A DNA stretch of 64,000 nucleotides, from positions 1 to 64,000 of IMG/VR virus record IMGVR_UViG_3300042731_008016; one strand, written 5' to 3'. A model generated the notes under the pieces. That model was given only the letters and a program-made list of their open reading frames with translations. It was not told where the DNA came from and ran no database searches. Shown here piece by piece: positions 4,026-62,042 of this stretch. The DNA comes from a virus. The stretch's first letter is position 1. Every line of letters begins with the position of its first letter. The translations under genes and the position numbers were made by a program.

Positions 4026-5000
4026 ATGATCGACCAAATATTAAAAGATACCTCTGACAAGATTGAAGTCGACATTTACTATAACAATGTCCTGACTCCA
4101 CCTGATTCAATTAGTATTAGGGAAATAAGAGACCCAAATGGAAATATTATCCTAACCAATCAATCAGTTACCGCAGGATCAACCACTGGAAGATATGAAT
4201 ACACCATGGGAGCAGCTTACACCTCTACTCTTGGTGTATACACTGCCATTTGGAGATTTGTAATCAATAGCGCTACTTATGAGCATACTCAATATTTTGA
4301 GGTTGTCTCTTCTCTTCGTCAGGGATATATCACACCATACGAAGTAAGACAGAAAACTGTTTATGAGGGAATCACCGATGATAGCCCGACTGATGCTGTT
4401 CTTCAAAAGTATATTGATAGATCCACAGCCATAATGGACAACTTTTTCGGTGGTTCAATTAACTACGCTATTTACACAGAAAAAAGACGCTGTGTTTTAG
4501 ATAAAGTTCATAATGGAGTTCATATCCAATTGAAATATAGACCGATTGTGAGTTTAACTTCAGTTCAATTAATGCAAGGTCCAACTAATACTCTAGATCT
4601 TGATACTGATTACATCAGAATTAATGAAGAGGCTGGTTATCTAGAATATTTTAATGATATCAGCGTTCCAACTTTAAGAATTTGTACTTTTGATCCATCA
4701 AGAACACAAATTATTCCTGTCGCCACCGTTGTTTATACAGCTGGATATGTAACTGTACCAGATAACGTAAAAGAAGCTGCAGCAATGTTAGTTGAATTCT
4801 TATACAAACAAACAAAAGGTGATGATAAACAATTGGTAAGATTCACTATTGATGAGGTAACTGAACAATACAGGACATCAAAAACCGAAGAATCAGCGAT
4901 GGCAGAATTAGGAGTCGGTAGTGTGCAACCAATATTAAAACTATTAAGACCATACAGATTGCCATATAAGACTTTGCCGTTTGTTGGTCCACTAGGATAA
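4026..5000 (+). CDS. Head-tail adaptor (gp6/gp15-like) with N-terminal Ig-like domain
   Basis: YITPYEVR...IDRSTAIMD and VVYTAGYVTVPDNVKEAAAML motifs; position; AGGAGG RBS. Confidence 0.7.
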   Translation: MIDQILKDTSDKIEVDIYYNNVLTPPDSISIREIRDPNGNIILTNQSVTAGSTTGRYEYTMGAAYTSTLGVYTAIWRFVINSATYEHTQYFEVVSSLRQGYITPYEVRQKTVYEGITDDSPTDAVLQKYIDRSTAIMDNFFGGSINYAIYTEKRRCVLDKVHNGVHIQLKYRPIVSLTSVQLMQGPTNTLDLDTDYIRINEEAGYLEYFNDISVPTLRICTFDPSRTQIIPVATVVYTAGYVTVPDNVKEAAAMLVEFLYKQTKGDDKQLVRFTIDEVTEQYRTSKTEESAMAELGVGSVQPILKLLRPYRLPYKTLPFVGPLG

Positions 5001-35713: not shown

Positions 35714-36871
35714 ATGCCAGATAAAAAATCTGCCGTTAATGGTAATTTATTTTCAAACAAAATTCTTGGTCTAGTAGATAGAGATCGAGAAATCAAACAG
35801 TTAATGTATGCCCTGTTTACCAAGGAGCACATGCTCTTAATGGGGCCTCCTGGTACTGCTAAATCACTTTTTGCTTCAAACGCTTTCAAAGCTATTGACG
35901 GAGCAAAATTATTTTCCATTCACTTAACCAAACAAACTACAGAAGAATACGTTTTTGGACCACTTAATATCATTGAGCTCAAAAAAGGAAACGTTGTTCA
36001 CAATACTAAGGATTCTATTTTGGAATCTGACTTTGCATTCATCGATGAGTTTTTTGATGCCTCTGACGTGCTCCTAAGATCGCTTTTAGGCGTCTTAAAC
36101 GAACGTGTATGGATGAAGGGTCAACAAAAGATAAATGCCAAGCTTCACACGGCTATCCTGACCTCCAACTACCAAAGAGAAAACGATGTTACCGAAGCTG
36201 TTTTGGATCGTGTGGTATTTAAAGCTGAAATTCAACCAATCACCGCTAAAAGCAAAAGAATGAGAGTTTACAAGGATTATCTTGGAGACTCTAACTTCCA
36301 ACCCCCAAAGATACTTGATCTCAAAAAGCTGAAAGAATTCACTGAGAAAGTGGATGATCCAAAGTCTGTAAAATTTAGCGACGACATTCTAAAGATATTT
36401 GATGAACTAGTCGATGAATATGCTAAAGAAACTAAAAAATACATATCTCAACGTACAGCTAATAAAGCTCTTAAAGTGCTCAAAGCTTCAGCCTTACTTA
36501 ACGGTAGAAAAGAAGTAGTCTACAAAGATATGGAAGAGCTCAAATATGTATTATGTGTGCTGAATAGAAGAGTTGAAGAAGAAGTTTTTGATGCTGTTTA
36601 TGAAAAATATGTTGGCAATGCCGAAGAAGAACAGATAGTTATGACTGACCTCGAAGAAATTGATGAGAAATTTTCTAAAGTTCCAACTAATTTTGATAAG
36701 CTTGGTGATAAAGATTTTGTAGAAAAAATGGCTGAACTCACAGAACTAGTAAATCTCTTAGAGAATATGAACTGTCCAACTCAACGAAGTAAACAAACTA
36801 GGGACAAACTCATGGACAAAATGAGAAAAGTCGTTGATGAAAACAGGGATAAATTATTTAAGAGAAGTTAA
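35714..36871 (+). CDS. MoxR/RavA-family AAA+ ATPase
   Basis: GPPGTAKS Walker A, AFIDEFF Walker B, TTEEYVFGP, AVLDR. Confidence 0.9.
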   Translation: MPDKKSAVNGNLFSNKILGLVDRDREIKQLMYALFTKEHMLLMGPPGTAKSLFASNAFKAIDGAKLFSIHLTKQTTEEYVFGPLNIIELKKGNVVHNTKDSILESDFAFIDEFFDASDVLLRSLLGVLNERVWMKGQQKINAKLHTAILTSNYQRENDVTEAVLDRVVFKAEIQPITAKSKRMRVYKDYLGDSNFQPPKILDLKKLKEFTEKVDDPKSVKFSDDILKIFDELVDEYAKETKKYISQRTANKALKVLKASALLNGRKEVVYKDMEELKYVLCVLNRRVEEEVFDAVYEKYVGNAEEEQIVMTDLEEIDEKFSKVPTNFDKLGDKDFVEKMAELTELVNLLENMNCPTQRSKQTRDKLMDKMRKVVDENRDKLFKRS

Positions 36872-36873
36872 CT

Positions 36874-37311
36874 ATGAGCATTAATACGCATAATCTAATT
36901 GTAGATTTCGGGAAACATAAGGGTGAGCGATGGACTAGAGTACCAGCAAGTTATCTTAGATGGTTAGTCAATCAACCCGAAGAAATCCCAGGAATGGAAA
37001 AAAACAAAGATATTGCAAAAGCTGAACTTGAACGTCGAGGAACTAAGATTGGTAAAGGAATTGTTGAAATTTCAAGTCATGCCATTGATTCGGCAAGCCT
37101 TCGGGTAAGAAAAACGTGGCATGAAACCAGTAATAAAGGAGAGGGTCTATACACTTGGCTACTTAGAATTGCTCAAGAAGCAGTCGAGAGTACCAATGAA
37201 CAACCAGAAAAATTAATATATAAAGGAATTAAATTCGTTTTTAAATGGGGCAATGAATTCCCAGTTTTAAAAACAGTAATGCCAGCTAAACATGAGAGTC
37301 ACAAAAACTAA
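36874..37311 (+). CDS. Protein with FGKHKG...VPxxYLxW domain (DUF3820-like)
   Basis: DFGKHKGERWTRVPASYLRWL. Confidence 0.65.
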   Translation: MSINTHNLIVDFGKHKGERWTRVPASYLRWLVNQPEEIPGMEKNKDIAKAELERRGTKIGKGIVEISSHAIDSASLRVRKTWHETSNKGEGLYTWLLRIAQEAVESTNEQPEKLIYKGIKFVFKWGNEFPVLKTVMPAKHESHKN

Positions 37312-39007
37312 ACTAAAAAAACAAATAAAAGAGCAGATTGCAAGCATGGTCGATGAGTCAGTCGTAGTAGATGACTTTACTTTATCCACTGATTTTGCTG
37401 AAGATCTATACGCATTATTTGCAGAAGAAATAAGTAAGCGTGGTATATTTAAAGGCTATTGGGAATTGTTCAAAGATGTAAAAAATCTATTTATTAGATT
37501 TAAAATCGGTGAGTTAATGAAGAATGTTGAGTTTTACTCACGGGTGAGGCAATTCTTTAGATATTTCATAACCTCAAAGCTTTTCTATGAGCTTGATAAG
37601 CTTGATGCAATGGAAGCCCTAGAAGCATTTCTAAGAATGTTTCAACCACCTCCACCACCAAATCAACCTCAACCAGGACAAGGCCAAGGAAATGATTCTG
37701 AAAATCAAGAAAGTCAACAAGACCAAAATGGTGACGGTCAAGGTAACAGCAAGCAAGATCAAAGCCAGCAAGGTCAAGGAGATCAACAACAAAGTAGTCA
37801 AGGTGATGGTGACGGCCAAGACAAACAGGATGGTCAACAAGGTCAAGGTGAAGGTGATGGAGATGGCAAAGAGAATAATTCAGAAGATGGCAATAGTGAA
37901 GAAGATCAAGATGATTCTCCTGGCAAAAGCAAACAACAACAGGGTAAAAAACAATCTCAACCTCAAAGCGGTAAAGGACAGGGTGGTAACAGTGAAGGGA
38001 AAGGTTCTGGTCAACAGCAACAACAGGGTGGAGATGGCAACCAATCACAACAGCCACCAAGACCACCAAGACGCAATACCCAAGATAAACAAGGCTTGAG
38101 TGCTGATGAAAAAAATCTTCCTATCGATATGACTAAGTTTAGACAAAGCCTTCCTAAAATCGAAAAGGCTATTGCTACTGGCATATTTGATAAAAACGAT
38201 GTGAAAAAATACCTAAATAAAAATGCTGGTATTGCCGAAAATGAACTTAAAGTTCACAACGTTATGGAAATCATTGACAAAATCTCAAGAAATGTTCGTG
38301 AACGTGATATGGATATTTTATATGTAGCCAGAATGAAAGAGGTTACTGAACGCTATCGTAGAGACGAAGTAATTAGTAGTGTTCCCTACCCAGATGATGA
38401 AATGACTATCAAAAATATTGAAGACTCAAATGAATTACTCAGGGTATTGCCAACAGAATTTATTCACGACGATGACGTCTTTATGCAAAAGTTTGTTAAA
38501 AAAGAATTGCAAATTAAGGACTATCAAGCTAGACGTTTAAAAAGACAAGTTTTATATCTCTTGATTGATGTTTCTGGAAGCATGAGGGGTTCAAGAAATG
38601 TCTACGCATCAGGAGTAGCTTTAGCTTTTGTTAGACAAGCTGTAACTGAAGGCTCTACTTATTTCCTACGCTTCTTTGACCACGGAATTAAACAACTAAA
38701 TACGGTCACTAATGAAAAAGAGGCAGAAAAAATGATGGATACTCTTATTAGACAACCTTACTCTGGGGGTGGTACCAGTATCAGCAATGCTCTTAGAACA
38801 GCAGTGAAGGATATTACTTCTGATCCTGAAGGATTTGAGAAAGCTGAAATCATGCTTATCACTGATGGTGAAGATAGTGTTGATTTATCTAAAAAAGATC
38901 TCAAAAAGATTAGGCTACACTCTACAGTCATAGAGGGTAATAATAGAGACCTTGAAGAGTTATCTAACAGTTATGTAGAGCTCAGAGAAAGAGACTTTAA
39001 GAGTTGA
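37292..39007 (+). CDS. VWA-domain protein (ViaA-like) with Gln/Gly-rich linker
   Basis: IDVSGSM MIDAS, GGGT, ITDGED. Confidence 0.9.
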   Translation: MRVTKTKLKKQIKEQIASMVDESVVVDDFTLSTDFAEDLYALFAEEISKRGIFKGYWELFKDVKNLFIRFKIGELMKNVEFYSRVRQFFRYFITSKLFYELDKLDAMEALEAFLRMFQPPPPPNQPQPGQGQGNDSENQESQQDQNGDGQGNSKQDQSQQGQGDQQQSSQGDGDGQDKQDGQQGQGEGDGDGKENNSEDGNSEEDQDDSPGKSKQQQGKKQSQPQSGKGQGGNSEGKGSGQQQQQGGDGNQSQQPPRPPRRNTQDKQGLSADEKNLPIDMTKFRQSLPKIEKAIATGIFDKNDVKKYLNKNAGIAENELKVHNVMEIIDKISRNVRERDMDILYVARMKEVTERYRRDEVISSVPYPDDEMTIKNIEDSNELLRVLPTEFIHDDDVFMQKFVKKELQIKDYQARRLKRQVLYLLIDVSGSMRGSRNVYASGVALAFVRQAVTEGSTYFLRFFDHGIKQLNTVTNEKEAEKMMDTLIRQPYSGGGTSISNALRTAVKDITSDPEGFEKAEIMLITDGEDSVDLSKKDLKKIRLHSTVIEGNNRDLEELSNSYVELRERDFKS

Positions 39008-40202: not shown

Positions 40203-40430
40203 ATGGAAGTCAAAGTATTAGACAAACTTTATAAAATAGTAAGTGAATTCCAGGGACAAACCCTAGAAAACGTGGCTTTCTTAAAAAAGACAGTCCACGG
40301 AAAGGAGATACTAACTGCAGAACTTACATTTAAAGATCAAGCAGATGTCAGCAGAATAATGGTGTTTGCTTTAGATCAAGAATTAACTGAAGGAGATCAC
40401 GTAGAAATGGTAGAAAAACTTCTTCAGTAA
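40203..40430 (+). CDS. Hypothetical protein
   Basis: AGGAGG RBS. Confidence 0.55.
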   Translation: MEVKVLDKLYKIVSEFQGQTLENVAFLKKTVHGKEILTAELTFKDQADVSRIMVFALDQELTEGDHVEMVEKLLQ

Positions 40431-40466
40431 AAATTATTATAAGAGAATTTAAAAAGGAAAATTAAT

Positions 40467-41117
40467 ATGCCAATATCAGAAAAAGTACAAATCAATCCCC
40501 TAAAGATCAAAGTAATTGATGTTACCATTGTTGGTACTACTAGCATGATTCAGCATCGTTTTGGTCAAAAAGCTAGAATGCAGATTCTAGAAAAACAAAT
40601 GAGAACTGCTAAAACTGGGAAAAAGCCAGTAAGAGATCCAAATAATGAATTTGAGCAAGGCTTACATGTCATGGAGGAAGGTAAGTTTACCTACACAAAT
40701 AAAGAGAATCCTGGATTGGGTGAAGTTAAGTTCACTGGTAAAGTTGGATTCCCAGCCTTCGGAGTAAAAGCAGCTATAGTTGCAGCAGCTCGAAATGTAG
40801 ATGATCTTCCAATGACTCTATTAAGAGGGGCTCTTTTCCTTAAAGGTGATGAAAACGATTTAATTGAGGTCGAATACAAAAAACTCATTATGAGGGAACA
40901 TACTGTAGTTATTGGAAGAGGAACTACCGATCTAAGATATCGCCCAGAATTGAGAGACTGGACAATGAAATTACAAATTGAATTTAACTCTGACGTTTTA
41001 ACCGTTTCAGAAGTTATCAATCTGCTTTCAATTGCTGGATTCAGTGTTGGTTTGGCAGAGATGAGACCTGGAAAGACTGGTGGAAACTACGGGAAATTCG
41101 AAGTAAAGGAGCAATAA
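40467..41117 (+). CDS. Stand-alone RAMP/Cas7-like RNA-binding protein
   Basis: N-terminal strand VTIVGTTSMIQH; GFPAFGVKAAI (cf. RAMP IPgSsiKGalR); LRYRPE..W; C-terminal Gly-rich loop AGFSVGLAEMRPGKTGGNYGKFEV. Confidence 0.7.
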   Translation: MPISEKVQINPLKIKVIDVTIVGTTSMIQHRFGQKARMQILEKQMRTAKTGKKPVRDPNNEFEQGLHVMEEGKFTYTNKENPGLGEVKFTGKVGFPAFGVKAAIVAAARNVDDLPMTLLRGALFLKGDENDLIEVEYKKLIMREHTVVIGRGTTDLRYRPELRDWTMKLQIEFNSDVLTVSEVINLLSIAGFSVGLAEMRPGKTGGNYGKFEVKEQ

Positions 41118-41118
41118 A

Positions 41119-41571
41119 ATGTCTAAGCTAAAAAGAGTAGAAAAAATTGCAATTGTCTGTGAAAAGATTGAGAAAAGAGATGGTATTCTCACTCCTCAGG
41201 CGGTTGTTGATGAAGCAAAATCATCTACATGTCTAATTCACGATATGTTTGATTGGAATGATATTAGTGCTTCAGAAAAATATCGACTCGGACAAGCTAG
41301 AAAACTAATTAAAGAAGTAACTATTACTTACGAAAACAAAGAGATTCATAGTTATCAAAATGTTTTACTTAAAATTCAAAATCAGCAAGTTCAAGGTTAT
41401 GCTTCAACTGTAAACATTTTGCAAAATGATGATTTGCGAAAACAAGTAATAGCAAAAGCTTTACAAGAACTTTTGTACTGGCAAGCTGAATATGCTAAAT
41501 ACAAAGAATTAGCTGATTTAGTTGATGCTGATAAATTAAACAGTCTTAGCAAAAAACATAAAACTAAATAA
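41119..41571 (+). CDS. Partner protein of the RAMP-like gene
   Basis: Translationally coupled (TAA-A-ATG); GILTPQAVVDEA...HDMFDWND...YRLGQARKLI motif. Confidence 0.7.
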   Translation: MSKLKRVEKIAIVCEKIEKRDGILTPQAVVDEAKSSTCLIHDMFDWNDISASEKYRLGQARKLIKEVTITYENKEIHSYQNVLLKIQNQQVQGYASTVNILQNDDLRKQVIAKALQELLYWQAEYAKYKELADLVDADKLNSLSKKHKTK

Positions 41572-41587
41572 AAGATAAGCTCTTTAA

Positions 41588-41984
41588 CAATTAAATAAGT
41601 GACTATTGAGGCAGGTGTGTTAAGGCACGCTGAAATACGTTGTGTGTCGGTTCGGGCTGGGTGAGATAAGTCCAGATTGGGTAAGGCAGGTCAGTTAGGA
41701 TTTGGTAGATAGTGCAGCGATCAGATGAGCTCTGGAGGGATCAGGTTAGGTTTGGCAGGTAAGTTGGGTTGGGTTGGGTAGAGAATTGTTTAGTTACGGT
41801 CCGATAAGGCAGGTGTGATGGGTTTGGTTCCGATATGATGGAGTGCGGTTAGTTCTGGCAGGTGGGTTGGGCTGAAATGTGTCGGCAATGGACAGGTGGG
41901 TTATGGCAGGTGGAATTAGTTGCGATGTGTTCGGTTCAGGAGCGTTGCGATTAGGTGGGGTTTGATGTGTCACTTATTTAATTG
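41588..41984. repeat. Perfect 16-bp inverted repeat enclosing the array
   Basis: CAATTAAATAAGTGAC (41588-41603) / GTCACTTATTTAATTG (41969-41984). Confidence 0.9.
41610..41968 (+). ncRNA. Candidate guide-RNA array: six GGCA-headed units of G-n-T-N-N pentamers
   Basis: GGCAGGT at 41610, 41685, 41754, 41808, 41857 and 41905; 5-nt periodicity; no ORF in the track; strongly G/T biased. Confidence 0.75.
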
Positions 41985-42027
41985 AAAATTGTTAAAATAA
42001 AATTGTGTTAATTAATTAGGAGTAAAT

Positions 42028-42912
42028 ATGGAAGAACAAAAAATATTAATAGTTCCAATCGGCTCTATTAGACCAGATCCAGATCAACCAAGAAAAACAT
42101 TTCTTGATAGTCATATTAACAGTCTAGCTCAAAGCATAAAGCAAGAAGGATTCATAAATGAGATTGAAATTGATGTTAATAACATGATTGTTACTGGAGA
42201 ATGTAGATGGAGAGCTGCTAAAAAGCTTAATCTTACTGAAGTTCCGATAAAAATAAACGAAACACAGTTCACATCGTACACCAGATTACGAAGACAAATG
42301 GCTGAGAATGCCCACCAATCTGGGGCATCATACGAAAGAGCAATGAATCCTTTGGAAATAGCTGAGGGTTACGCTAGATTAATTAAGCTTAAAACTGGAA
42401 AAGATTGTCGGCCTGGCCAACAATCTCGTGAAGAATCTTACGGTTTAATAAAAGGGGTTGCCTCTGAATTAGGTCTCCATAGATCGACAGTTTATGAATA
42501 TTTAGAATTAATTGAACAACCAAAGGAACTTAAAAAAGCAATTGTCGAGAAGGGATTGCCACGAACTTATATTAGAGAAATTGAAAAAGCTCCTGAAGAA
42601 ATCAAACCAGCACTTCAGAAAAAAGCAGTTGAGGGTGGTTATTCAAGCAGAAGAGAAATCAAAGAAGACGTTAAGTTAGCCAAAGATCATCCCGATGTTG
42701 CTGAAAAAGTTATTCCTAGACAAACTCCAGAAGCAGCTAAAAAAGAATCTATTGGAGGAGGAAGGTTGCTTACTTGGATCAGTGAGGGAGTTTTGGCTTT
42801 GAGAGCAATTCCTAGAAGAGAAATAAGAATTGAAGAAAAAGGAGCAGTTGAACAACAGCTTGAATGGATAGTAGAAAAAATCAACGCTTGGCAGCGTGAT
42901 GAAAAAGTCTAA
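42028..42912 (+). CDS. ParB/Spo0J-like protein
   Basis: IRPDPDQPRKTF, IVTGECRWRAA, AEN, HTH (VASELGLHRSTV). Confidence 0.85.
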   Translation: MEEQKILIVPIGSIRPDPDQPRKTFLDSHINSLAQSIKQEGFINEIEIDVNNMIVTGECRWRAAKKLNLTEVPIKINETQFTSYTRLRRQMAENAHQSGASYERAMNPLEIAEGYARLIKLKTGKDCRPGQQSREESYGLIKGVASELGLHRSTVYEYLELIEQPKELKKAIVEKGLPRTYIREIEKAPEEIKPALQKKAVEGGYSSRREIKEDVKLAKDHPDVAEKVIPRQTPEAAKKESIGGGRLLTWISEGVLALRAIPRREIRIEEKGAVEQQLEWIVEKINAWQRDEKV

Positions 42913-57779: not shown

Positions 57780-58441
57780 CTGACTTAAATGCCCTATTAC
57801 CAAATCCAAAAGATATTAATTTATCTGCAGCTCACGTTGATTTTAAACACCTAGATAAAACAGCTCTCAGACGTGCAAAAGTTCGTGAATTAATGCAGAT
57901 GGGTTACAACAATACCCAAATTTCCCTAATTTTAGAAAAAGGAATTAGAGTTGGTGAGGGAAATGAACAAAAAGAAGTTCAAGTCCCCTGTAGTGAAGGT
58001 ACTATCAGAAATGATATTAACTACATTCAAACTGAGTTCCTTTCAGCTGATGATGACATGTTGGTCAAAAGAGGCGAGCTTCTAGATAAACTTGGATTTC
58101 TTTATAATCAAGCTGTATCAAATTACACAACAGCAAAAGGGGCAGTTAAAAATAGTTTCTTGAATACAGCTTTAAATGTTATTAATAAGATTATGGAGGT
58201 TGAAGGTGTAAAATCTCCAGAGAATCTTAATGTTAATCTAAATGCAGAAGCTAAAGTAGCTCAGTTTGCTGCAGAAATACATAAATTAAGCGAAAATGAC
58301 AAATCTACTATTCTCAGCGCAATTCGAAAAGTTCGTGAGGGACGCTTCAACAAAGGAAATGGAGAATCTGGAGTTTCTGATTCAGAACCCGAAGTACGAG
58401 CATCGACCAGTAACGATGAAGGAGTTCCTGGAGAATCCTAA
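57776..58441 (+). CDS. Probable terminase small subunit
   Basis: HTH-like RRAKVRELMQMGYNNTQI...SEGTIRNDI; directly upstream of TerL. Confidence 0.55.
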   Translation: MTDLNALLPNPKDINLSAAHVDFKHLDKTALRRAKVRELMQMGYNNTQISLILEKGIRVGEGNEQKEVQVPCSEGTIRNDINYIQTEFLSADDDMLVKRGELLDKLGFLYNQAVSNYTTAKGAVKNSFLNTALNVINKIMEVEGVKSPENLNVNLNAEAKVAQFAAEIHKLSENDKSTILSAIRKVREGRFNKGNGESGVSDSEPEVRASTSNDEGVPGES

Positions 58442-61400
58442 ATTTGTTAATCCACAGGATGCTCCAAGACCTCATAATAAGCAACTCTTAATCGATATTT
58501 TTGATAGCGGTAAAACATTTGAAGATTTTGAGAACCTTGGTAAATACGAGGAGGCTCTCTATATTGCTGGAATTGGGAGTGGTAAATGTCTTGCTAGGGG
58601 AACCAAAATCATCCGCTATTCAGGTAAGGTTGATGTTGTAGAAAATATTAAACAAGGTGACTTGTTAATGGGCTGGGACAGTAAGCCAAGAAAGGTGATC
58701 TCACTATCAAGGGGCAGGGAAAAATTATATAAAGTAACTCCAACTAAAGGCGAACCTTTTATCATAAATCAATCCCATATTTTGTCGCTTAAAAGAACAA
58801 ACAGGGGTATTATTGCCAATAATGGCAGGTTAGATCAAAAAGCAGGAGAGATAATAAACATATCAGTCTTGGAATATCTAGAGTTAAGCAACAAAATGAA
58901 GAACATTTTAAAACTATGGAGGGTTGGTATAAATTTTAAGAAAAAGAAGGTTAGTATAGATCCATACTTTTTGGGACTATGGTTGGGGGACGGTAATTCT
59001 CATAATATCGGAATCGCCACACAGGACATTGAGATTAAGAATGAAATATATAAACAAGCAAAAGTTTGTGGACTCGTGGTAAATATTAATCAAAATAAAA
59101 ACAAAACTTGTCCAACATATATTGTCACAAGTGGAACAAAGTTGGGAAGTAAAAACAGAAATTCGCTATTAGAAAATTTTAAACAATATAATCTCATCAA
59201 AAATAAATATATTCCGCAAGTATATAAATTCAACTCAAAGAAAATCAGATTACAGTTGTTAGCAGGGCTAATTGATAGCGATGGATATCAAGGAAATAAC
59301 TGTTTGGAGTTTTCCAATAAAAATAAAACCTTAATTGATGATATTACATACCTGTGTCGTTCGTTAGGTTTTGCTGCCTATATAAAACAAAGGAAAACTT
59401 CCTGCAATGGAAAATCATTCATATCATATAGAGTTTCTATATCGGGAGATTTAGAAAAAATTCCTGTTCAACTAGAAAGAAAAAAATGTACTAAAAGGAC
59501 ACAAAAGAAGGATGTTCTTTTAACTGGATTTAAAATAGAACCTATTGGAATTGGTGATTATTATGGATTTGATGTAGATAGAGACCATTTGTATTTATTA
59601 GGTGATTTCACAGTTACCCATAATTCTTATGTTTCCTCAATGGCCATTGTTTATAATATTTATCGTCTTCTTTGCTTAAAAGATCCACAAGCCTATTTTA
59701 AATTTGCTAAAGGCACAAAGATTGCTTTTATTAACATTTCCACATCTTTTTCACAAGCTAAGGATGTTGTTTTTAGCGAAATTAAAAACCGTGTTGATAA
59801 CAACCAATGGTTTCAAAACTTCTTTCCACCTAACCCGAGAATTAAATCACTTCTTCAATTCCCTAAAAATATTTATATTTTGCCTCTAGGATCAAATGAA
59901 GAGTCTCCTCTCGGATACAATATTTTTGGAGCCGTCATTGACGAGGCTTCATTTCATACTTTAACTAAAGATAAAGATTACGCTGAAGAATCTTATAACC
60001 AGATTAAGAAACGTATTCGTTCTCGATTTTTATCTAAAGGAAAACTTTTCATTATTACTTCACCTCGGTACGTTTATGACTTCGCTGAGAAGAAAATGGA
60101 AGAGGAAGCTGATAATCCAAAAGTTTATAAAAAAAGAACTCCTCTCTGGGATGCTATGCCACCAGATAGATTCTCTGGACAAAAATTTGATCTAGGCAAA
60201 TATCTCCCCGCCTATAAGGGCGTCATGGTCCCCGTGGAATACGAGGACGAGTTCAAACAAAATCCCGAGAAAGCCATGCGGGACTATGGCGCCCAACCAT
60301 CTCAAGCTATCCAAAGCTTTTTTGCTAATCCATCAATCATTGATGATAATGCTAATTATGATAGAAAACACCCAATTAATCCCAAAGATGGTGAATTTCA
60401 CACATGGTTTTTCAACAGAGCAAGTCAAGAAGATTATGATTCAGATAAAAGATTTATTCATGTTGACCTTGGACTTAATAGAGAAGGAAAAGGCGACTGT
60501 GCTGGGTTTGCTATGGGTAAATTTGATGGATGGATTGAAAAACAGAGTACATCTGGAAAAATGGAAAAGCGTCCAAAAGTTAAAATTGATCTTATGTTAA
60601 GAATTGAGGCTGGACCACGCAAAGAAATTAAATTTGAAGAAATCAGACAAATGATCTATAAAATCAGAGATATTGGTTATAATATTCACAAGATTACTTT
60701 TGATGGTTGGCAAAGCGAAATTGGAAGTACAATGGTCAAGTTGCTTGATGGGACAAACAAAAGAATGGATGAAATTACAAACGGTGCTTGGATTTATTCA
60801 TTTGACTTAAATAAAAAAGAAATTGTCCCAGCCTTTTGTAAACCAGTAAAACAAACTGGAATAAATGCTCCAGTTTACGAAATCATCATAGATAATGGAC
60901 AAAAAATATACCTAACAAAAGAACATCCATTGTTAATGAAAAATGGAACCTATAAACAAGTAGAGTTTCTTAAATGTGGAGATAGTTTGATGCCATTTAA
61001 TACAAGCTTTTTAGAAAGAAAAAACAAAACTAATACAAAACCAAGACAATATGAAAAAATATTCCAACCAAATACAAATACTTGGGAAATGACACATGAT
61101 ATGGTTGCTAGGAATGTTTATGGAGAAAAACCAAAAAATAATGTAGTTCATCATAAAGATTTTAATTCTCTAAATAATGAACCAGACAATTTAGAGTATT
61201 TATATGTTAAGAAGCATACTGCATATCATCGAAAATTAACTCAAAAATCTAATCAAATCAGATGGTCAAAAAAAGGTGAAAGACGGAAGCAAGCTCAATT
61301 AATGAGAGATAGAAATAAAAAATATAATTTACCATCTTTATTAAAACCACCAACTAAAGAGATTGCTAAAAAAATAGCACTAACAATTAAAAACAAATGG

Positions 61401-62042
61401 GACAATAATAACGAATATCAAGAAAAAATGGCAAAAAGACCAGTATATTGTGGTGAGTATTCTCCACATTTTAATAGAGATATACCTAATGAAATATTAT
61501 TTAAAGCCTGTGCTACCAGTAATTCTCTGGAAGAAGTTAAGCAAAAATTGAACCTTAAAAATACGTTTTTTGTTATAAGAAGATTAAAGACATTGGGTTA
61601 CAAAGGATTCAAGGACTACAAATCACAAAAAAATCATAAAGTTGTATCTGTCAAATTTCATGGATATGAGGATGTTTATGACATAGAAGTACCAAAATAT
61701 AATAATTTTGGACTTTCGGCAGGTATATTTGTTCATAATTCCATAGACTCTATTCAAATGCTTAATTCAGCTGGTTTTAAAGCTGAGACATTCTCAATCG
61801 ATAGGAATCCAGAAGCCTACTATACCGTCAAAGCTGCAATTTTAGATGATCGTCTTGATTATTACTATTACGCACCATTTTCTGAAGAACTTAAACAACT
61901 TGAAGAAATTAAAGGCATGAAAATCGATCACCCTAGACAAGGAAAGAAAGACGTAGCTGATGCTGTAGCTGGAGTATGTTATCACGCTGCACAAGGAACT
62001 CCTGGTGTCGGATTTCTTGGAGTCAAACAGACACAATCTTGA
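58296..62042 (+). CDS. terL: Terminase large subunit with two inteins
   Basis: Walker A GIGSGK|S, Walker B AVIDE, nuclease HVDLG, FDGWQ|S, KIDHP..GKKDVADAVAG. Confidence 0.9.
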   Translation: MTNLLFSAQFEKFVRDASTKEMENLEFLIQNPKYEHRPVTMKEFLENPKFVNPQDAPRPHNKQLLIDIFDSGKTFEDFENLGKYEEALYIAGIGSGKCLARGTKIIRYSGKVDVVENIKQGDLLMGWDSKPRKVISLSRGREKLYKVTPTKGEPFIINQSHILSLKRTNRGIIANNGRLDQKAGEIINISVLEYLELSNKMKNILKLWRVGINFKKKKVSIDPYFLGLWLGDGNSHNIGIATQDIEIKNEIYKQAKVCGLVVNINQNKNKTCPTYIVTSGTKLGSKNRNSLLENFKQYNLIKNKYIPQVYKFNSKKIRLQLLAGLIDSDGYQGNNCLEFSNKNKTLIDDITYLCRSLGFAAYIKQRKTSCNGKSFISYRVSISGDLEKIPVQLERKKCTKRTQKKDVLLTGFKIEPIGIGDYYGFDVDRDHLYLLGDFTVTHNSYVSSMAIVYNIYRLLCLKDPQAYFKFAKGTKIAFINISTSFSQAKDVVFSEIKNRVDNNQWFQNFFPPNPRIKSLLQFPKNIYILPLGSNEESPLGYNIFGAVIDEASFHTLTKDKDYAEESYNQIKKRIRSRFLSKGKLFIITSPRYVYDFAEKKMEEEADNPKVYKKRTPLWDAMPPDRFSGQKFDLGKYLPAYKGVMVPVEYEDEFKQNPEKAMRDYGAQPSQAIQSFFANPSIIDDNANYDRKHPINPKDGEFHTWFFNRASQEDYDSDKRFIHVDLGLNREGKGDCAGFAMGKFDGWIEKQSTSGKMEKRPKVKIDLMLRIEAGPRKEIKFEEIRQMIYKIRDIGYNIHKITFDGWQSEIGSTMVKLLDGTNKRMDEITNGAWIYSFDLNKKEIVPAFCKPVKQTGINAPVYEIIIDNGQKIYLTKEHPLLMKNGTYKQVEFLKCGDSLMPFNTSFLERKNKTNTKPRQYEKIFQPNTNTWEMTHDMVARNVYGEKPKNNVVHHKDFNSLNNEPDNLEYLYVKKHTAYHRKLTQKSNQIRWSKKGERRKQAQLMRDRNKKYNLPSLLKPPTKEIAKKIALTIKNKWDNNNEYQEKMAKRPVYCGEYSPHFNRDIPNEILFKACATSNSLEEVKQKLNLKNTFFVIRRLKTLGYKGFKDYKSQKNHKVVSVKFHGYEDVYDIEVPKYNNFGLSAGIFVHNSIDSIQMLNSAGFKAETFSIDRNPEAYYTVKAAILDDRLDYYYYAPFSEELKQLEEIKGMKIDHPRQGKKDVADAVAGVCYHAAQGTPGVGFLGVKQTQS
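58587..59624 (+). mobile_element. Intein 1 (346 aa) with LAGLIDADG endonuclease
   Basis: CLARGT...LGLWLGDG...LAGLIDSDG...VTHN|S, inserted in Walker A. Confidence 0.92.
60714..61739 (+). mobile_element. Intein 2 (342 aa) with HNH endonuclease, Ser-initiated
   Basis: SEIGSTMVKLLDG...TKEHP...VHHKDFNSLNNEPDNL...DVYDIEV...FVHN|S. Confidence 0.88.

What the first reader, a model, noticed from the sequence alone, without database searches (positions are those of the whole stretch)
41610..41968. The array carries a 5-nt code: constant G-n-T, variable NN
Units start at 41610, 41685, 41754, 41808, 41857 and 41905, so lengths are 75, 69, 54, 49, 48 (4+5n, with 1-nt slips in units 1 and 5). Unit 2: ggca ggtCA gttAG gatTT ggtAG ataGT gcaGC gatCA gatGA gctCT ggaGG gatCA ggtTA ggtTT. 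Unit 3: ggca ggtAA gttGG gttGG gttGG gtaGA gaaTT gttTA gttAC ggtCC gatAA. Unit 4: ggca ggtGT gatGG gttTG gttCC gatAT gatGG agtGC ggtTA gttCT. Unit 6: ggca ggtGG aatTA gttGC gatGT gttCG gttCA ggaGC gttGC gatTA ggtGG ggtTT gatGT. Positions 1 and 3 are constrained while 4-5 vary freely, unlike random microsatellite decay. Inference: the NN pairs spell a non-contiguous target. An NN-x-NN-x reading could skip codon wobble positions and resist synonymous escape.
Basis: partly seen in the sequence, partly recalled or inferred. Interest (0 to 1): 0.9.

Follow-up and report, generated by a model that had tools for sequence, protein, structure and literature searches.

The report
Phage VIPR guide-RNA array (pentamer code)
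The pentamer-coded stretch is the guide-RNA array of a VIPR system, a phage RNA-guided DNA-silencing system first described in 2026 preprints, and two of its guides spell, codon by codon, conserved motifs of a restriction-modification methylase and of a prophage-induction protease.

Summary
Window 41610-41968 has a real period-5 signal (z=6.4 at lag 5). In the phased pentamers, position 1 is G (93%) and position 3 is T (86%). Position 2 is G, A or T in about equal shares, and positions 4-5 are near-random.

It is the mechanism published for VIPR systems (bioRxiv 10.64898/2026.04.26.720920), in which a Vipr RAMP protein and vrRNAs of constant-triplet/NN pentamers read DNA as NNx.

- **Genes:** the ORF two genes upstream (40467-41117) matches the solved SUSP1 Vipr protein (profile E=1.9e-11) and folds like Cas7. 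The next ORF is a conserved accessory gene.
- **Relatives:** ten of the 11 distinct related loci examined carry pentamer arrays cut by the same GGCA junction.
- **Unit 3:** read as NNx, it matches 123 of 123 retrieved sites in frame at the HsdM motif KGGGEFYTPK.
- **Unit 2:** its nine 3' dinucleotides match 11 of 11 sites in frame at the RF[TS]VAHELGHYF motif of ImmA/IrrE peptidases.
- **Units 4 and 6:** no convincing target found. Units 1 and 5 are degenerate.

Local peculiarities are a relaxed second base (G-D-T, not GGY), no 3' tail, and an inverted-repeat clamp. Verdict: a new member of a known kind.

The parts
40411..40440 (+). Promoter-like site upstream of vipr; possible start of a vipr-vap-array transcript
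   Evidence: Consensus scan, 9 of 12 matches, no more sites than in shuffles. No promoter-like or terminator-like site lies between vap and the array. Weak evidence; co-transcription is inferred.
40467..41117 (+). vipr: 216-aa RAMP (Cas7-like) protein, the predicted vrRNA-binding filament subunit
   Evidence: The family profile hits PDB 36pp_D 'SUSP1 Vipr protein' at E=1.9e-11; the single sequence hits at E=0.0016. The AF2 model has pLDDT 90.2. Top Foldseek hits are Csm3, Cmr4 and type VII Cas7 at probability 1.0. It also matches phrog_4652.
41119..41571 (+). vap-like accessory gene (150 aa), predicted winged-helix-like protein
   Evidence: Homologues (HxxFxWDDxxAxxxYRxxQAR) sit next to vipr in 8 related loci. 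The AF2 model has pLDDT 88.8. Only weak Foldseek matches were found, nearly all to winged-helix DNA-binding domains (E about 0.1). It matches phrog_15946.
41583..41603 (+). Left arm of the inverted repeat that brackets the array
   Evidence: The arms pair over 16 nt perfectly plus a further 10 nt, 365 nt apart, and close the predicted RNA fold. L009 has an 11-nt bracket of different sequence around its array.
41610..41684 (+). Unit 1: GGCA junction, then 9 pentamers, 1 extra G, then 5 pentamers; a degenerate or bulged guide
   Evidence: Phasing.
41685..41753 (+). Unit 2: GGCA plus 13 pentamers. The guide decodes to [HQ][RS][FL][RS]VA[HQ][DE]LG[HQ]Y[FL], the ImmA/IrrE (Peptidase_M78) HExxH motif
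   Evidence: The whole guide has no exact hit. Its 3' nine NN have 11 exact hits in viral contigs. All 11 are in frame at RF[TS]VAHELGHYF, with 21-25 of 26 guide positions matching. Pfam Peptidase_M78 hits are E=3e-18 to 4e-12.
41754..41807 (+). Unit 3: GGCA plus 10 pentamers. The guide decodes to [KN]GGG[DE][FL]YTP[KN], the type I R-M methyltransferase HsdM motif KGGGEFYTPK
   Evidence: There are 3 exact hits in viral contigs and at least 120 in genome contigs. All 123 are in frame in HsdM. In 300 evenly drawn genomes there are 2 hits against 0 for the reversed-pattern control.
41808..41856 (+). Unit 4: GGCA plus 9 pentamers; target unknown
   Evidence: Phasing. No exact NNx hit in viral contigs.
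41857..41904 (+). Unit 5: degenerate. Five in-phase pentamers, an out-of-phase stretch, an internal GGACAGG junction, then two pentamers
41905..41968 (+). Unit 6: GGCA plus 12 pentamers; target not established
   Evidence: No exact hit. The middle 8 NN give 4 hits. The best matches 21 of 24 positions, antisense and in frame, at DPYAAWRTAF of a 1678-aa phage protein. This is no better than weak.
41969..41996 (+). Right arm of the bracketing inverted repeat

Best explanation
Window 41610-41968 is the vrRNA array of a phage-encoded VIPR (Viral Interference Programmable Repeat) system. The system's genes lie just upstream: vipr at 40467-41117 and a vap-like gene at 41119-41571.

By analogy with the characterised systems, the array is transcribed on the + strand, probably together with vipr and vap. 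It is then cut at or near the conserved GGCA junctions into guides of 9-13 pentamers. One Vipr protomer binds each pentamer. It sequesters the constant triplet (here G-D-T rather than GGY) and presents the two variable bases. The filament pairs these dinucleotides with double-stranded DNA while skipping every third target base, so a guide reads a gene codon by codon and ignores wobble positions. Binding silences transcription.

Four units look intact (2, 3, 4, 6). Unit 3 is addressed to the KGGGEFYTPK motif of a widespread subfamily of type I restriction-modification methyltransferases (HsdM). Unit 2 is addressed to the HExxH motif region (QRF[ST]VAHELGHYF) of ImmA/IrrE-type metallopeptidases, which drive induction of prophages and integrative elements. 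The phage therefore most likely uses the array to shut down defence and induction genes of its host or of rival mobile elements.

Shown here: the periodic code, the gene homology, the conserved locus architecture and the in-frame target matches. Inferred: transcription, processing at GGCA, filament formation, silencing and its benefit to the phage.
For: **Periodicity and per-position constraint**
-.

**Vipr homology and fold**
- The profile hits solved SUSP1 Vipr at E=1.9e-11.
- The Cas7-like fold has pLDDT 90.
- SUSP1 RNA-contact residues H17, R138, D177 and R179 correspond to H30, R159, E198 and R200 here (roles from 10.64898/2026.04.26.720927).

**Conserved locus architecture**
- Vap-like genes flank vipr in 8 related loci.
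- Pentamer or GGCAGG-delimited arrays lie beside vipr in L002, L004-L010 and L012 (L013 is the same contig as L002) and in Gordonia phage UmaThurman.
- The NN differ completely between loci, while the triplet and the GGCA junction are kept.

**Fit to published features**
- Unit sizes of 9-13 fall in the published 9-16 range.
- The genome is a complete 100.8-kb phage with terminal repeats.
- No self-target rises above shuffled controls, as published for VIPR.

**Targets**
- Unit 3: 123 of 123 exact NNx matches are in frame in HsdM. Uniform-composition expectation is about 1 for the 596-Gb collection. The reversed-pattern control gave 0. All nine skipped positions are polymorphic among the targets.
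- Unit 2: 11 of 11 matches are in frame in Peptidase_M78 genes, with 21-25 of 26 positions matching.
Against: - No RNA data exist. No RNA run holds this DNA, so expression, strand and processing sites are unverified.
- The constant triplet is not the canonical GGY, since G2 is only 32% G. W178, one of the two published G2 contacts, is Met here.
- There is no invariant 3' tail or pseudoknot as in the characterised type II systems.
- Units 4 and 6 and the whole of unit 2 have no exact match in viral contigs. Units 1 and 5 are out of register.
- The host is unknown, so it is not shown that an HsdM or ImmA gene with these motifs meets this phage.
- Silencing hsdM after infection would not remove restriction enzyme already present, so the benefit is unclear.
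- The unit 2 hits were selected on 9 of 13 dinucleotides. The best natural match found is 25 of 26, not perfect.
Confidence: 0.9

Rival explanations
1. A decaying pentanucleotide microsatellite (GGTTN-like) with no function. The apparent code would be residual repeat identity.
For: Tandem Repeats Finder reports a perfect (GTTGG)x3.4 run at 41763-41779. G/T richness and strong GC skew are typical of simple repeats.
Against: - Decay would randomise all positions alike. Here positions 1 and 3 keep 1.4-1.6 bits while 4-5 carry 0.02-0.13 bits.
- The same triplet/NN layout with a GGCA junction recurs next to vipr homologues of only 30-59% identity, with unrelated NN.
- The GTTGG run is explained by a Gly-Gly-Gly stretch in the decoded target.
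- Two units decode to conserved protein motifs.
Confidence: 0.02
2. A centromere (parS-like) or iteron array bound as double-stranded DNA by the ParB-like protein encoded just downstream (42028-42912), serving partition or replication of a phage-plasmid.
For: The adjacent gene has ParB_N and HTH_ParB domains. Short repeats flanked by an inverted repeat next to parB are typical of partition sites.
Against: - In the relatives, the arrays travel with vipr and vap, not with the ParB-like gene. The ORFs downstream of the arrays in L008, L009, L010 and L012 are different proteins.
- In Gordonia phage UmaThurman the array lies in an immunity region.
- Centromere repeats are conserved in sequence, whereas these units share only G-x-T.
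- Extreme strand asymmetry (G 40%, C 11%) fits a single-stranded reading.
Confidence: 0.03
3. A protein-sponge or wrap-around RNA in the manner of TRAP or CsrB. The repeated triplets would titrate or assemble an oligomeric RNA-binding protein, and the NN would be mere spacers carrying no target information.
For: Triplets separated by 2-nt spacers resemble TRAP binding sites (established knowledge). Vipr does polymerise one protomer per pentamer. Satellite vrRNAs that merely redirect Vipr to decoy sites are reported (10.64898/2026.10.15.759431).
Against: Spacers without information should not decode to conserved protein motifs. Unit 3 gives 123 of 123 and unit 2 gives 11 of 11 in-frame hits. 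Units 1 and 5, which are out of register, could still be non-guiding remnants.
Confidence: 0.04

Closest known systems
Type II VIPR systems of Escherichia phage SUSP1 and the Pseudomonas fulva prophage (bioRxiv 10.64898/2026.04.26.720920, 10.64898/2026.04.26.720927 and 10.64898/2026.10.15.759431)
   Same: - A small RAMP protein homologous to SUSP1 Vipr, with an adjacent small accessory gene.
- Phage-encoded.
- Guides of 9-13 pentamers with a constant triplet and hypervariable NN.
- Targets read as NNx, in frame with codons.
- Targets lie in genes of defence or mobile-element biology.
- No self-targets.
   Different: - The triplet is G-D-T (G2 free among G, A and T) instead of GGY.
- The Trp that stacks on G2 in SUSP1 is Met here.
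- There is no ~40-nt invariant 3' tail or pseudoknot. Units abut through a 4-nt GGCA junction.
- The whole array is clamped by a 16+10-bp inverted repeat.
- The guides address family-wide protein motifs (HsdM, ImmA/IrrE) rather than one particular satellite or prophage.
- Protein identity to SUSP1 Vipr is low; only the C-terminal third aligns pairwise.
Staggered vrRNA arrays and non-canonical VIPR repeats (fig. S18 of 10.64898/2026.04.26.720920; fig. S10 of 10.64898/2026.10.21.760802)
   Same: Guides follow one another without tails. GGCAG and the next GGNNN share one G, which fits the described '1 nt overlapping positions'. Repeats degenerate at one triplet position are reported (WGT/NN, TGH/NN).
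   Different: The figures could not be read, so identity with those types is inferred from legends only. A G-D-T/NN (YNNGN) consensus is not among the variants named in the text (NNNGG, YNNNG, NNNNG, GAC, CAC, WGT, TGH).
Class 1 CRISPR-Cas backbone (Cas7/Csm3/Cmr4 filament on crRNA)
   Same: The RAMP fold is shared; the best structural matches are Csm3, Cmr4 and type VII Cas7. One protomer binds per fixed RNA step, with bases flipped out at regular intervals.
   Different: No repeat-spacer array, and no other cas genes were noticed nearby. The step is 5 nt with 2 read bases, not 6 nt with 5 read. The guide is non-contiguous.

Membership tests
VIPR system | Vipr protein: a small (~20 kDa) RAMP homologous to characterised Vipr | tested here: met
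   The 216-aa ORF's family profile hits PDB 36pp_D SUSP1 Vipr at E=1.9e-11. The AF2 model (pLDDT 90) matches Csm3, Cmr4 and Cas7 at probability 1.0.
VIPR system | Conservation of the residues that hold the constant triplet (SUSP1 H17 and D177 for G1; R138 and W178 for G2; R179 for Y3) | tested here: inconclusive
   H30, E198, R159 and R200 are conserved, and W178 is M199. This fits kept G1 and Y3 with relaxed G2. However, L010 also has Met with a GGT array, so Met does not by itself explain the relaxation.
VIPR system | Minimal two-gene locus: vipr plus an adjacent vap accessory gene | tested here: met
   A 150-aa ORF is conserved beside vipr in 8 related loci, in the order vipr-vap-array or vipr-array-vap. 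The fold is weakly winged-helix-like. Which published vap class it belongs to could not be determined.
VIPR system | vrRNA tract of 9-16 tandem pentamers with a constant trinucleotide and hypervariable NN | tested here: met
   Units of 13, 10, 9 and 12 pentamers. Positions 1 and 3 carry 1.64 and 1.43 bits; positions 4-5 carry 0.13 and 0.02 bits.
VIPR system | Canonical GGY constant motif | tested here: not met
   Position 2 is G 32%, A 30%, T 34%. The same holds in the two closest loci, L008 and L009. GGT, GG[T/A] or GGC appear in more distant ones. Related consensus motifs are accepted by the describing papers.
VIPR system | Invariant structured 3' tail after each repeat tract (type II architecture) | tested here: not met
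   Units abut through a 4-nt GGCA junction, and no Rfam family matches. This is compatible with the published tail-less 'staggered' arrays.
VIPR system | Targets obey the 1-nt skip rule with skips on codon wobble positions | tested here: met
   Unit 3: 123 of 123 exact NNx hits are in frame in HsdM, and the skipped bases are polymorphic. Unit 2: 11 of 11 are in frame in Peptidase_M78 genes. Other skip lengths were compared only on loci already selected by the 1-nt rule, so that comparison is not independent.
VIPR system | vrRNA expression, Vipr-vrRNA complex formation and transcriptional silencing | not testable with these tools
   No RNA run holds this DNA. Biochemistry is needed.
VIPR system | Mostly virus-borne; no self-targeting at 80% NN match or above | tested here: met
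   The record is a complete 100,839-bp virus with a 69-bp terminal repeat and tail, portal and terminase genes. The best self matches are 62-78%, within shuffled controls.
CRISPR array | Direct repeats of about 23-50 nt alternating with unique spacers | tested here: not met
   Only a 7-nt GGCAGGT is shared. The repeat families found are pentamer-derived.
ParB-parS partition site | Repeats co-inherited with the ParB gene and conserved in sequence | tested here: not met
   In related loci the arrays accompany vipr and vap, and the ORFs downstream differ.

The most novel reading that the evidence does not exclude
This phage's VIPR guides are aimed not at one rival element but at invariant catalytic-motif codons of whole gene families. 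These are a type I restriction-modification methyltransferase subfamily found across many phyla and ImmA/IrrE induction proteases. Wobble-skipping would thus be used as a family-wide, host-range-independent counter-defence and anti-induction weapon. A Vipr variant that has given up recognition of the second guanine would let an AT-rich phage encode its guides.
Probability: 0.3. Interest if true: 0.72.

Novelty: new member of a known kind. Interest (0 to 1): 0.45.

Why it matters
The finding shows that a tool-less reader recovered from raw sequence the logic of a guide-RNA system that was published only months earlier. The follow-up confirms that logic on an unrelated wetland phage.

For the field, the locus adds three things:
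- an AT-rich VIPR lineage with a G-D-T repeat, in which a residue that contacts G2 in SUSP1 Vipr is changed;
- a compact, tail-less, GGCA-punctuated and clamped array;
- two predicted targets that are conserved protein motifs of a defence methyltransferase and of a prophage-induction protease.

If those targets are real, VIPR guides can be written against protein families rather than single genomes. That bears on how phages disarm hosts and rivals, and on designing escape-proof programmable repressors.

Tried and rejected
**Searches that found nothing**
- Rfam, permissive search of 41000-42600: chance-level hits only, none in the array.
- blastn of the locus against isolated phages: no match.
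- The search for related loci with the vap protein alone: no relatives.
- Sequencing runs: the DNA is held by one wetland metagenome, possibly its source, with small shares in two mangrove runs. No RNA holder is listed.

The contexts of the closest homologues (P0002 and others) could not be fetched that way.
- Supplementary tables of the VIPR paper are not held, so the VIPR type (I-VII) and vap class could not be assigned.

**Target searches**
- Exact NNx scans of viral contigs for whole unit 2, unit 6 and unit 4: no hits.
- Unit 2 with up to 3 mismatches in five genomes that carry the HsdM target: none.
- The other guides scanned against the 123 HsdM loci: nothing above shuffled guides.
- Guides from related arrays scanned against all fetched target loci: nothing above controls.

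**Ideas rejected or only partly supported**
- My first guesses, a TRAP/CsrA-like sponge RNA or ParB iterons, were dropped after the Vipr hit.
- W178-to-Met as the cause of the relaxed G2 is only partly supported, because L010 has Met with GGT repeats.
The matches read HELGHYF in ImmA/IrrE peptidases.
- Host inference from the RecA/UvsX-like protein was uninformative; the best hits are about 45% identical and spread over many hosts.

Full report
**Observation**

The stretch 41610-41968 lies in a 456-nt gap between a 150-aa ORF (41119-41571) and a ParB-like gene (42028-42912). It is G/T-rich and C-poor (G 145, T 106, A 70, C 38) in a 35% GC window.

Base identity at lag 5 is 0.441 against 0.297 in shuffles (z=6.4), with echoes at lags 10, 15 and 20. 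No other place in the 64-kb window passes a sliding period-5 filter.

Units 2, 3, 4 and 6 are GGCA followed by 13, 10, 9 and 12 clean pentamers. Across these 44 pentamers, position 1 is G in 93% and position 3 is T in 86%. Position 2 is G, A or T in equal shares with C rare. Positions 4-5 carry 0.13 and 0.02 bits. Units 1 and 5 are out of register.

**What it is**

The window is the first 64 kb of a complete 100,839-bp virus record. It has a 69-bp terminal repeat and tape-measure, portal and terminase genes.

A profile of the 216-aa ORF at 40467-41117 and its 40 metagenomic homologues matches one solved protein, 'SUSP1 Vipr protein' (PDB 36pp_D, E=1.9e-11). That name led to three 2026 preprints from one group describing VIPR systems. 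These comprise a small RAMP protein (Vipr), an accessory gene (vap) and vrRNAs. The vrRNAs are made of 9-16 pentamers in which GGY is constant and NN is hypervariable. The NN pair with double-stranded DNA while every third target base is skipped. The skipped base usually falls on the codon wobble position, which the authors argue blocks escape by synonymous mutation.

**Membership tests**

- *Vipr fold.* The AlphaFold model of the 216-aa protein is confident (pLDDT 90.2). Its best structural matches are the Cas7-family backbone subunits Csm3, Cmr4 and type VII Cas7.
- *RNA-contact residues.* Pairwise and profile alignments to SUSP1 Vipr place its RNA-contact residues H17, R138, D177 and R179 on H30, R159, E198 and R200. 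W178, which stacks on the second guanine, is Met199 here.
- *Accessory gene.* The 150-aa ORF has homologues beside vipr in eight other loci. It folds confidently (pLDDT 88.8). It gives only weak, though nearly uniform, matches to winged-helix DNA-binding domains. This agrees with the published description of some vap genes but is not proof.

**Related loci**

Thirteen loci encoding Vipr homologues of 30-59% identity were fetched from viral and metagenome collections. They represent eleven distinct loci, because L002, L003 and L013 come from the same or near-identical contigs. Nine of the eleven carry, next to vipr or vap, arrays of pentamers cut by the same GGCA junction followed by GG. L011 and L014 showed none. 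Gordonia phage UmaThurman carries one too. Its array is annotated there as protein-coding 'gene 40'.

The NN are unrelated between loci, while the triplet and the junction persist. The triplet varies by lineage:
- GGC in GC-rich phages;
- GGT or GG[T/A] in intermediate relatives;
- G-D-T in the window and its two closest relatives, L008 and L009.

L010 has Met at the W178 position yet keeps GGT. So the Trp-to-Met change may permit but does not explain the relaxed second base.

The GGCA junction can be read as a pentamer GGCAG sharing its last G with the next unit. That fits the legend of the published 'staggered arrays' with 1-nt overlaps, but I could not see that figure. There is no ~40-nt tail as in the characterised type II systems.

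**Targets**

I decoded each clean unit as NNx.

*Unit 3* gives [KN]GGG[DE][FL]YTP[KN].
- Its exact pattern (20 specified bases) has 3 matches in the viral collection.
About one is expected there for uniform base composition.
- All 123 matches lie in frame at EGKGGGEFYTPK of genes with HsdM_N and N6_Mtase domains.
- Among these targets every one of the nine skipped bases is polymorphic. This is what a wobble-skipping guide is supposed to tolerate.
- In 300 genomes drawn evenly from one phylum there were two exact matches and none for the reversed-pattern control.

*Unit 2* as a whole has no exact match. Its nine 3' dinucleotides have 11.
- All 11 are in frame at RF[TS]VAHELGHYF of Peptidase_M78 (ImmA/IrrE) genes.
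- The full guide matches 21-25 of 26 positions.
- A 16-base sub-pattern of unit 6 gave only 4 hits in the same collection. Eleven hits for 18 bases is therefore far above chance.

*Units 4 and 6* gave nothing convincing. The best candidate for unit 6 matches 21 of 24 positions, antisense and in frame, in a giant phage protein.

No guide matches the phage's own genome above shuffled controls.

**How it most likely works**

I have no transcript data. The scan found one weak promoter-like site upstream of vipr and neither a promoter nor a terminator before the array. I therefore infer a vipr-vap-array transcript.

The 16+10-bp inverted repeat that brackets the array closes the predicted fold. It has a counterpart of different sequence in L009 but not in L008 or L010. 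It may aid processing or stability, but this is speculation.

After processing near the GGCA junctions, each guide would be coated by Vipr, one protomer per pentamer, and would bind DNA by the NNx rule and block transcription, as shown for SUSP1 and P. fulva VIPR.

Targeting an ImmA-type protease fits the published theme of immobilising resident prophages or satellites. Targeting HsdM is not mentioned in any of the VIPR papers I could search. It would be a defence-gene target, either of the host or of a rival element, since three of the hits are on viral contigs. The benefit is uncertain. Repressing hsdM does not remove enzyme already made, and it would leave progeny unmodified.

**Comparison and novelty**

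The kind of system is known, including non-canonical repeats and tail-less arrays. This locus is an undescribed member. Its particulars are the G-D-T (YNNGN) consensus, the Met at the G2-stacking position, the clamp, and guides that spell family-wide protein motifs.

I rate this as a new member of a known kind, of moderate interest.

**Limits**

- Skip lengths other than 1 were not tested on unbiased data.
- The host is unknown.

Noticed in passing
L138:3125-3448 (Gordonia phage UmaThurman NC_031249.1, 33362-33685): The annotated CDS 'gene 40, hypothetical protein', just downstream of the Vipr homologue gp39 and close to the integrase, repressor and excise genes, is made of GGY/NN pentamers with GGCA junctions. 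It is most likely a vrRNA array mis-annotated as a protein. Twenty-seven Mycobacterium and five Gordonia phage records carry Vipr homologues.
   Followed up: partly
window 41583-41603 and 41969-41996; L009:4185-4195 and 4515-4525: A 16+10-bp perfect inverted repeat clamps the whole array. L009 has an 11-bp bracket of unrelated sequence around its array, whereas L008, L010 and L012 show none at the thresholds used. The role is unknown; processing, stability or termination are possibilities.
   Followed up: partly
window 41763-41783: The run GTTGGGTTGGGTTGGGT could form a G-quadruplex. It is also the only perfect tandem repeat here. It is simply three pentamers GTTGG that encode Gly-Gly-Gly of the HsdM motif.
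   Followed up: yes
window 35714-36871 and 37292-39007: A bpMoxR-type AAA ATPase (PF20030, E=1e-35) is followed by a 571-aa protein with a C-terminal VWA domain and a long Q/G/D/S-rich low-complexity region. This is a MoxR-VWA pair inside a phage genome, upstream of the VIPR locus.
   Followed up: no
window 42028-42912: A ParB-like gene (ParB_N plus HTH_ParB) lies directly downstream of the array. It is not a conserved neighbour of the array in related loci. It may hint at a plasmid-like lifestyle.
   Followed up: partly
window 58296-62042: This 1248-aa ORF combines terminase large-subunit matches (residues 79-509) with HNH endonuclease matches (residues 914-1115). It may be a fused or invaded terminase gene.
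   Followed up: no
L153:959-981 and L152:194-216: The best candidate target of unit 6 matches 21 of 24 informative positions, antisense and in frame, at NTDPYAAWRTAF. It lies near the C-terminus of a 1678-aa phage protein built of many FDFSWxPDP...PYIYVFGNQW repeats, with no Pfam match in its last 554 residues.
   Followed up: partly
L016:11997-13838: One HsdM target gene on a viral contig has an N-terminal extension that looks like an XRE-type helix-turn-helix (…GLSQGALGEKIDVSQVQVSQWETG…) fused to the methyltransferase.
   Followed up: no
window 41624-41650 and 41870-41883: The degenerate units 1 and 5 share a GCTGAAAT...GTGTC(GG) segment (direct repeat family D5). They may be decayed duplicates of one guide.
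   Followed up: no
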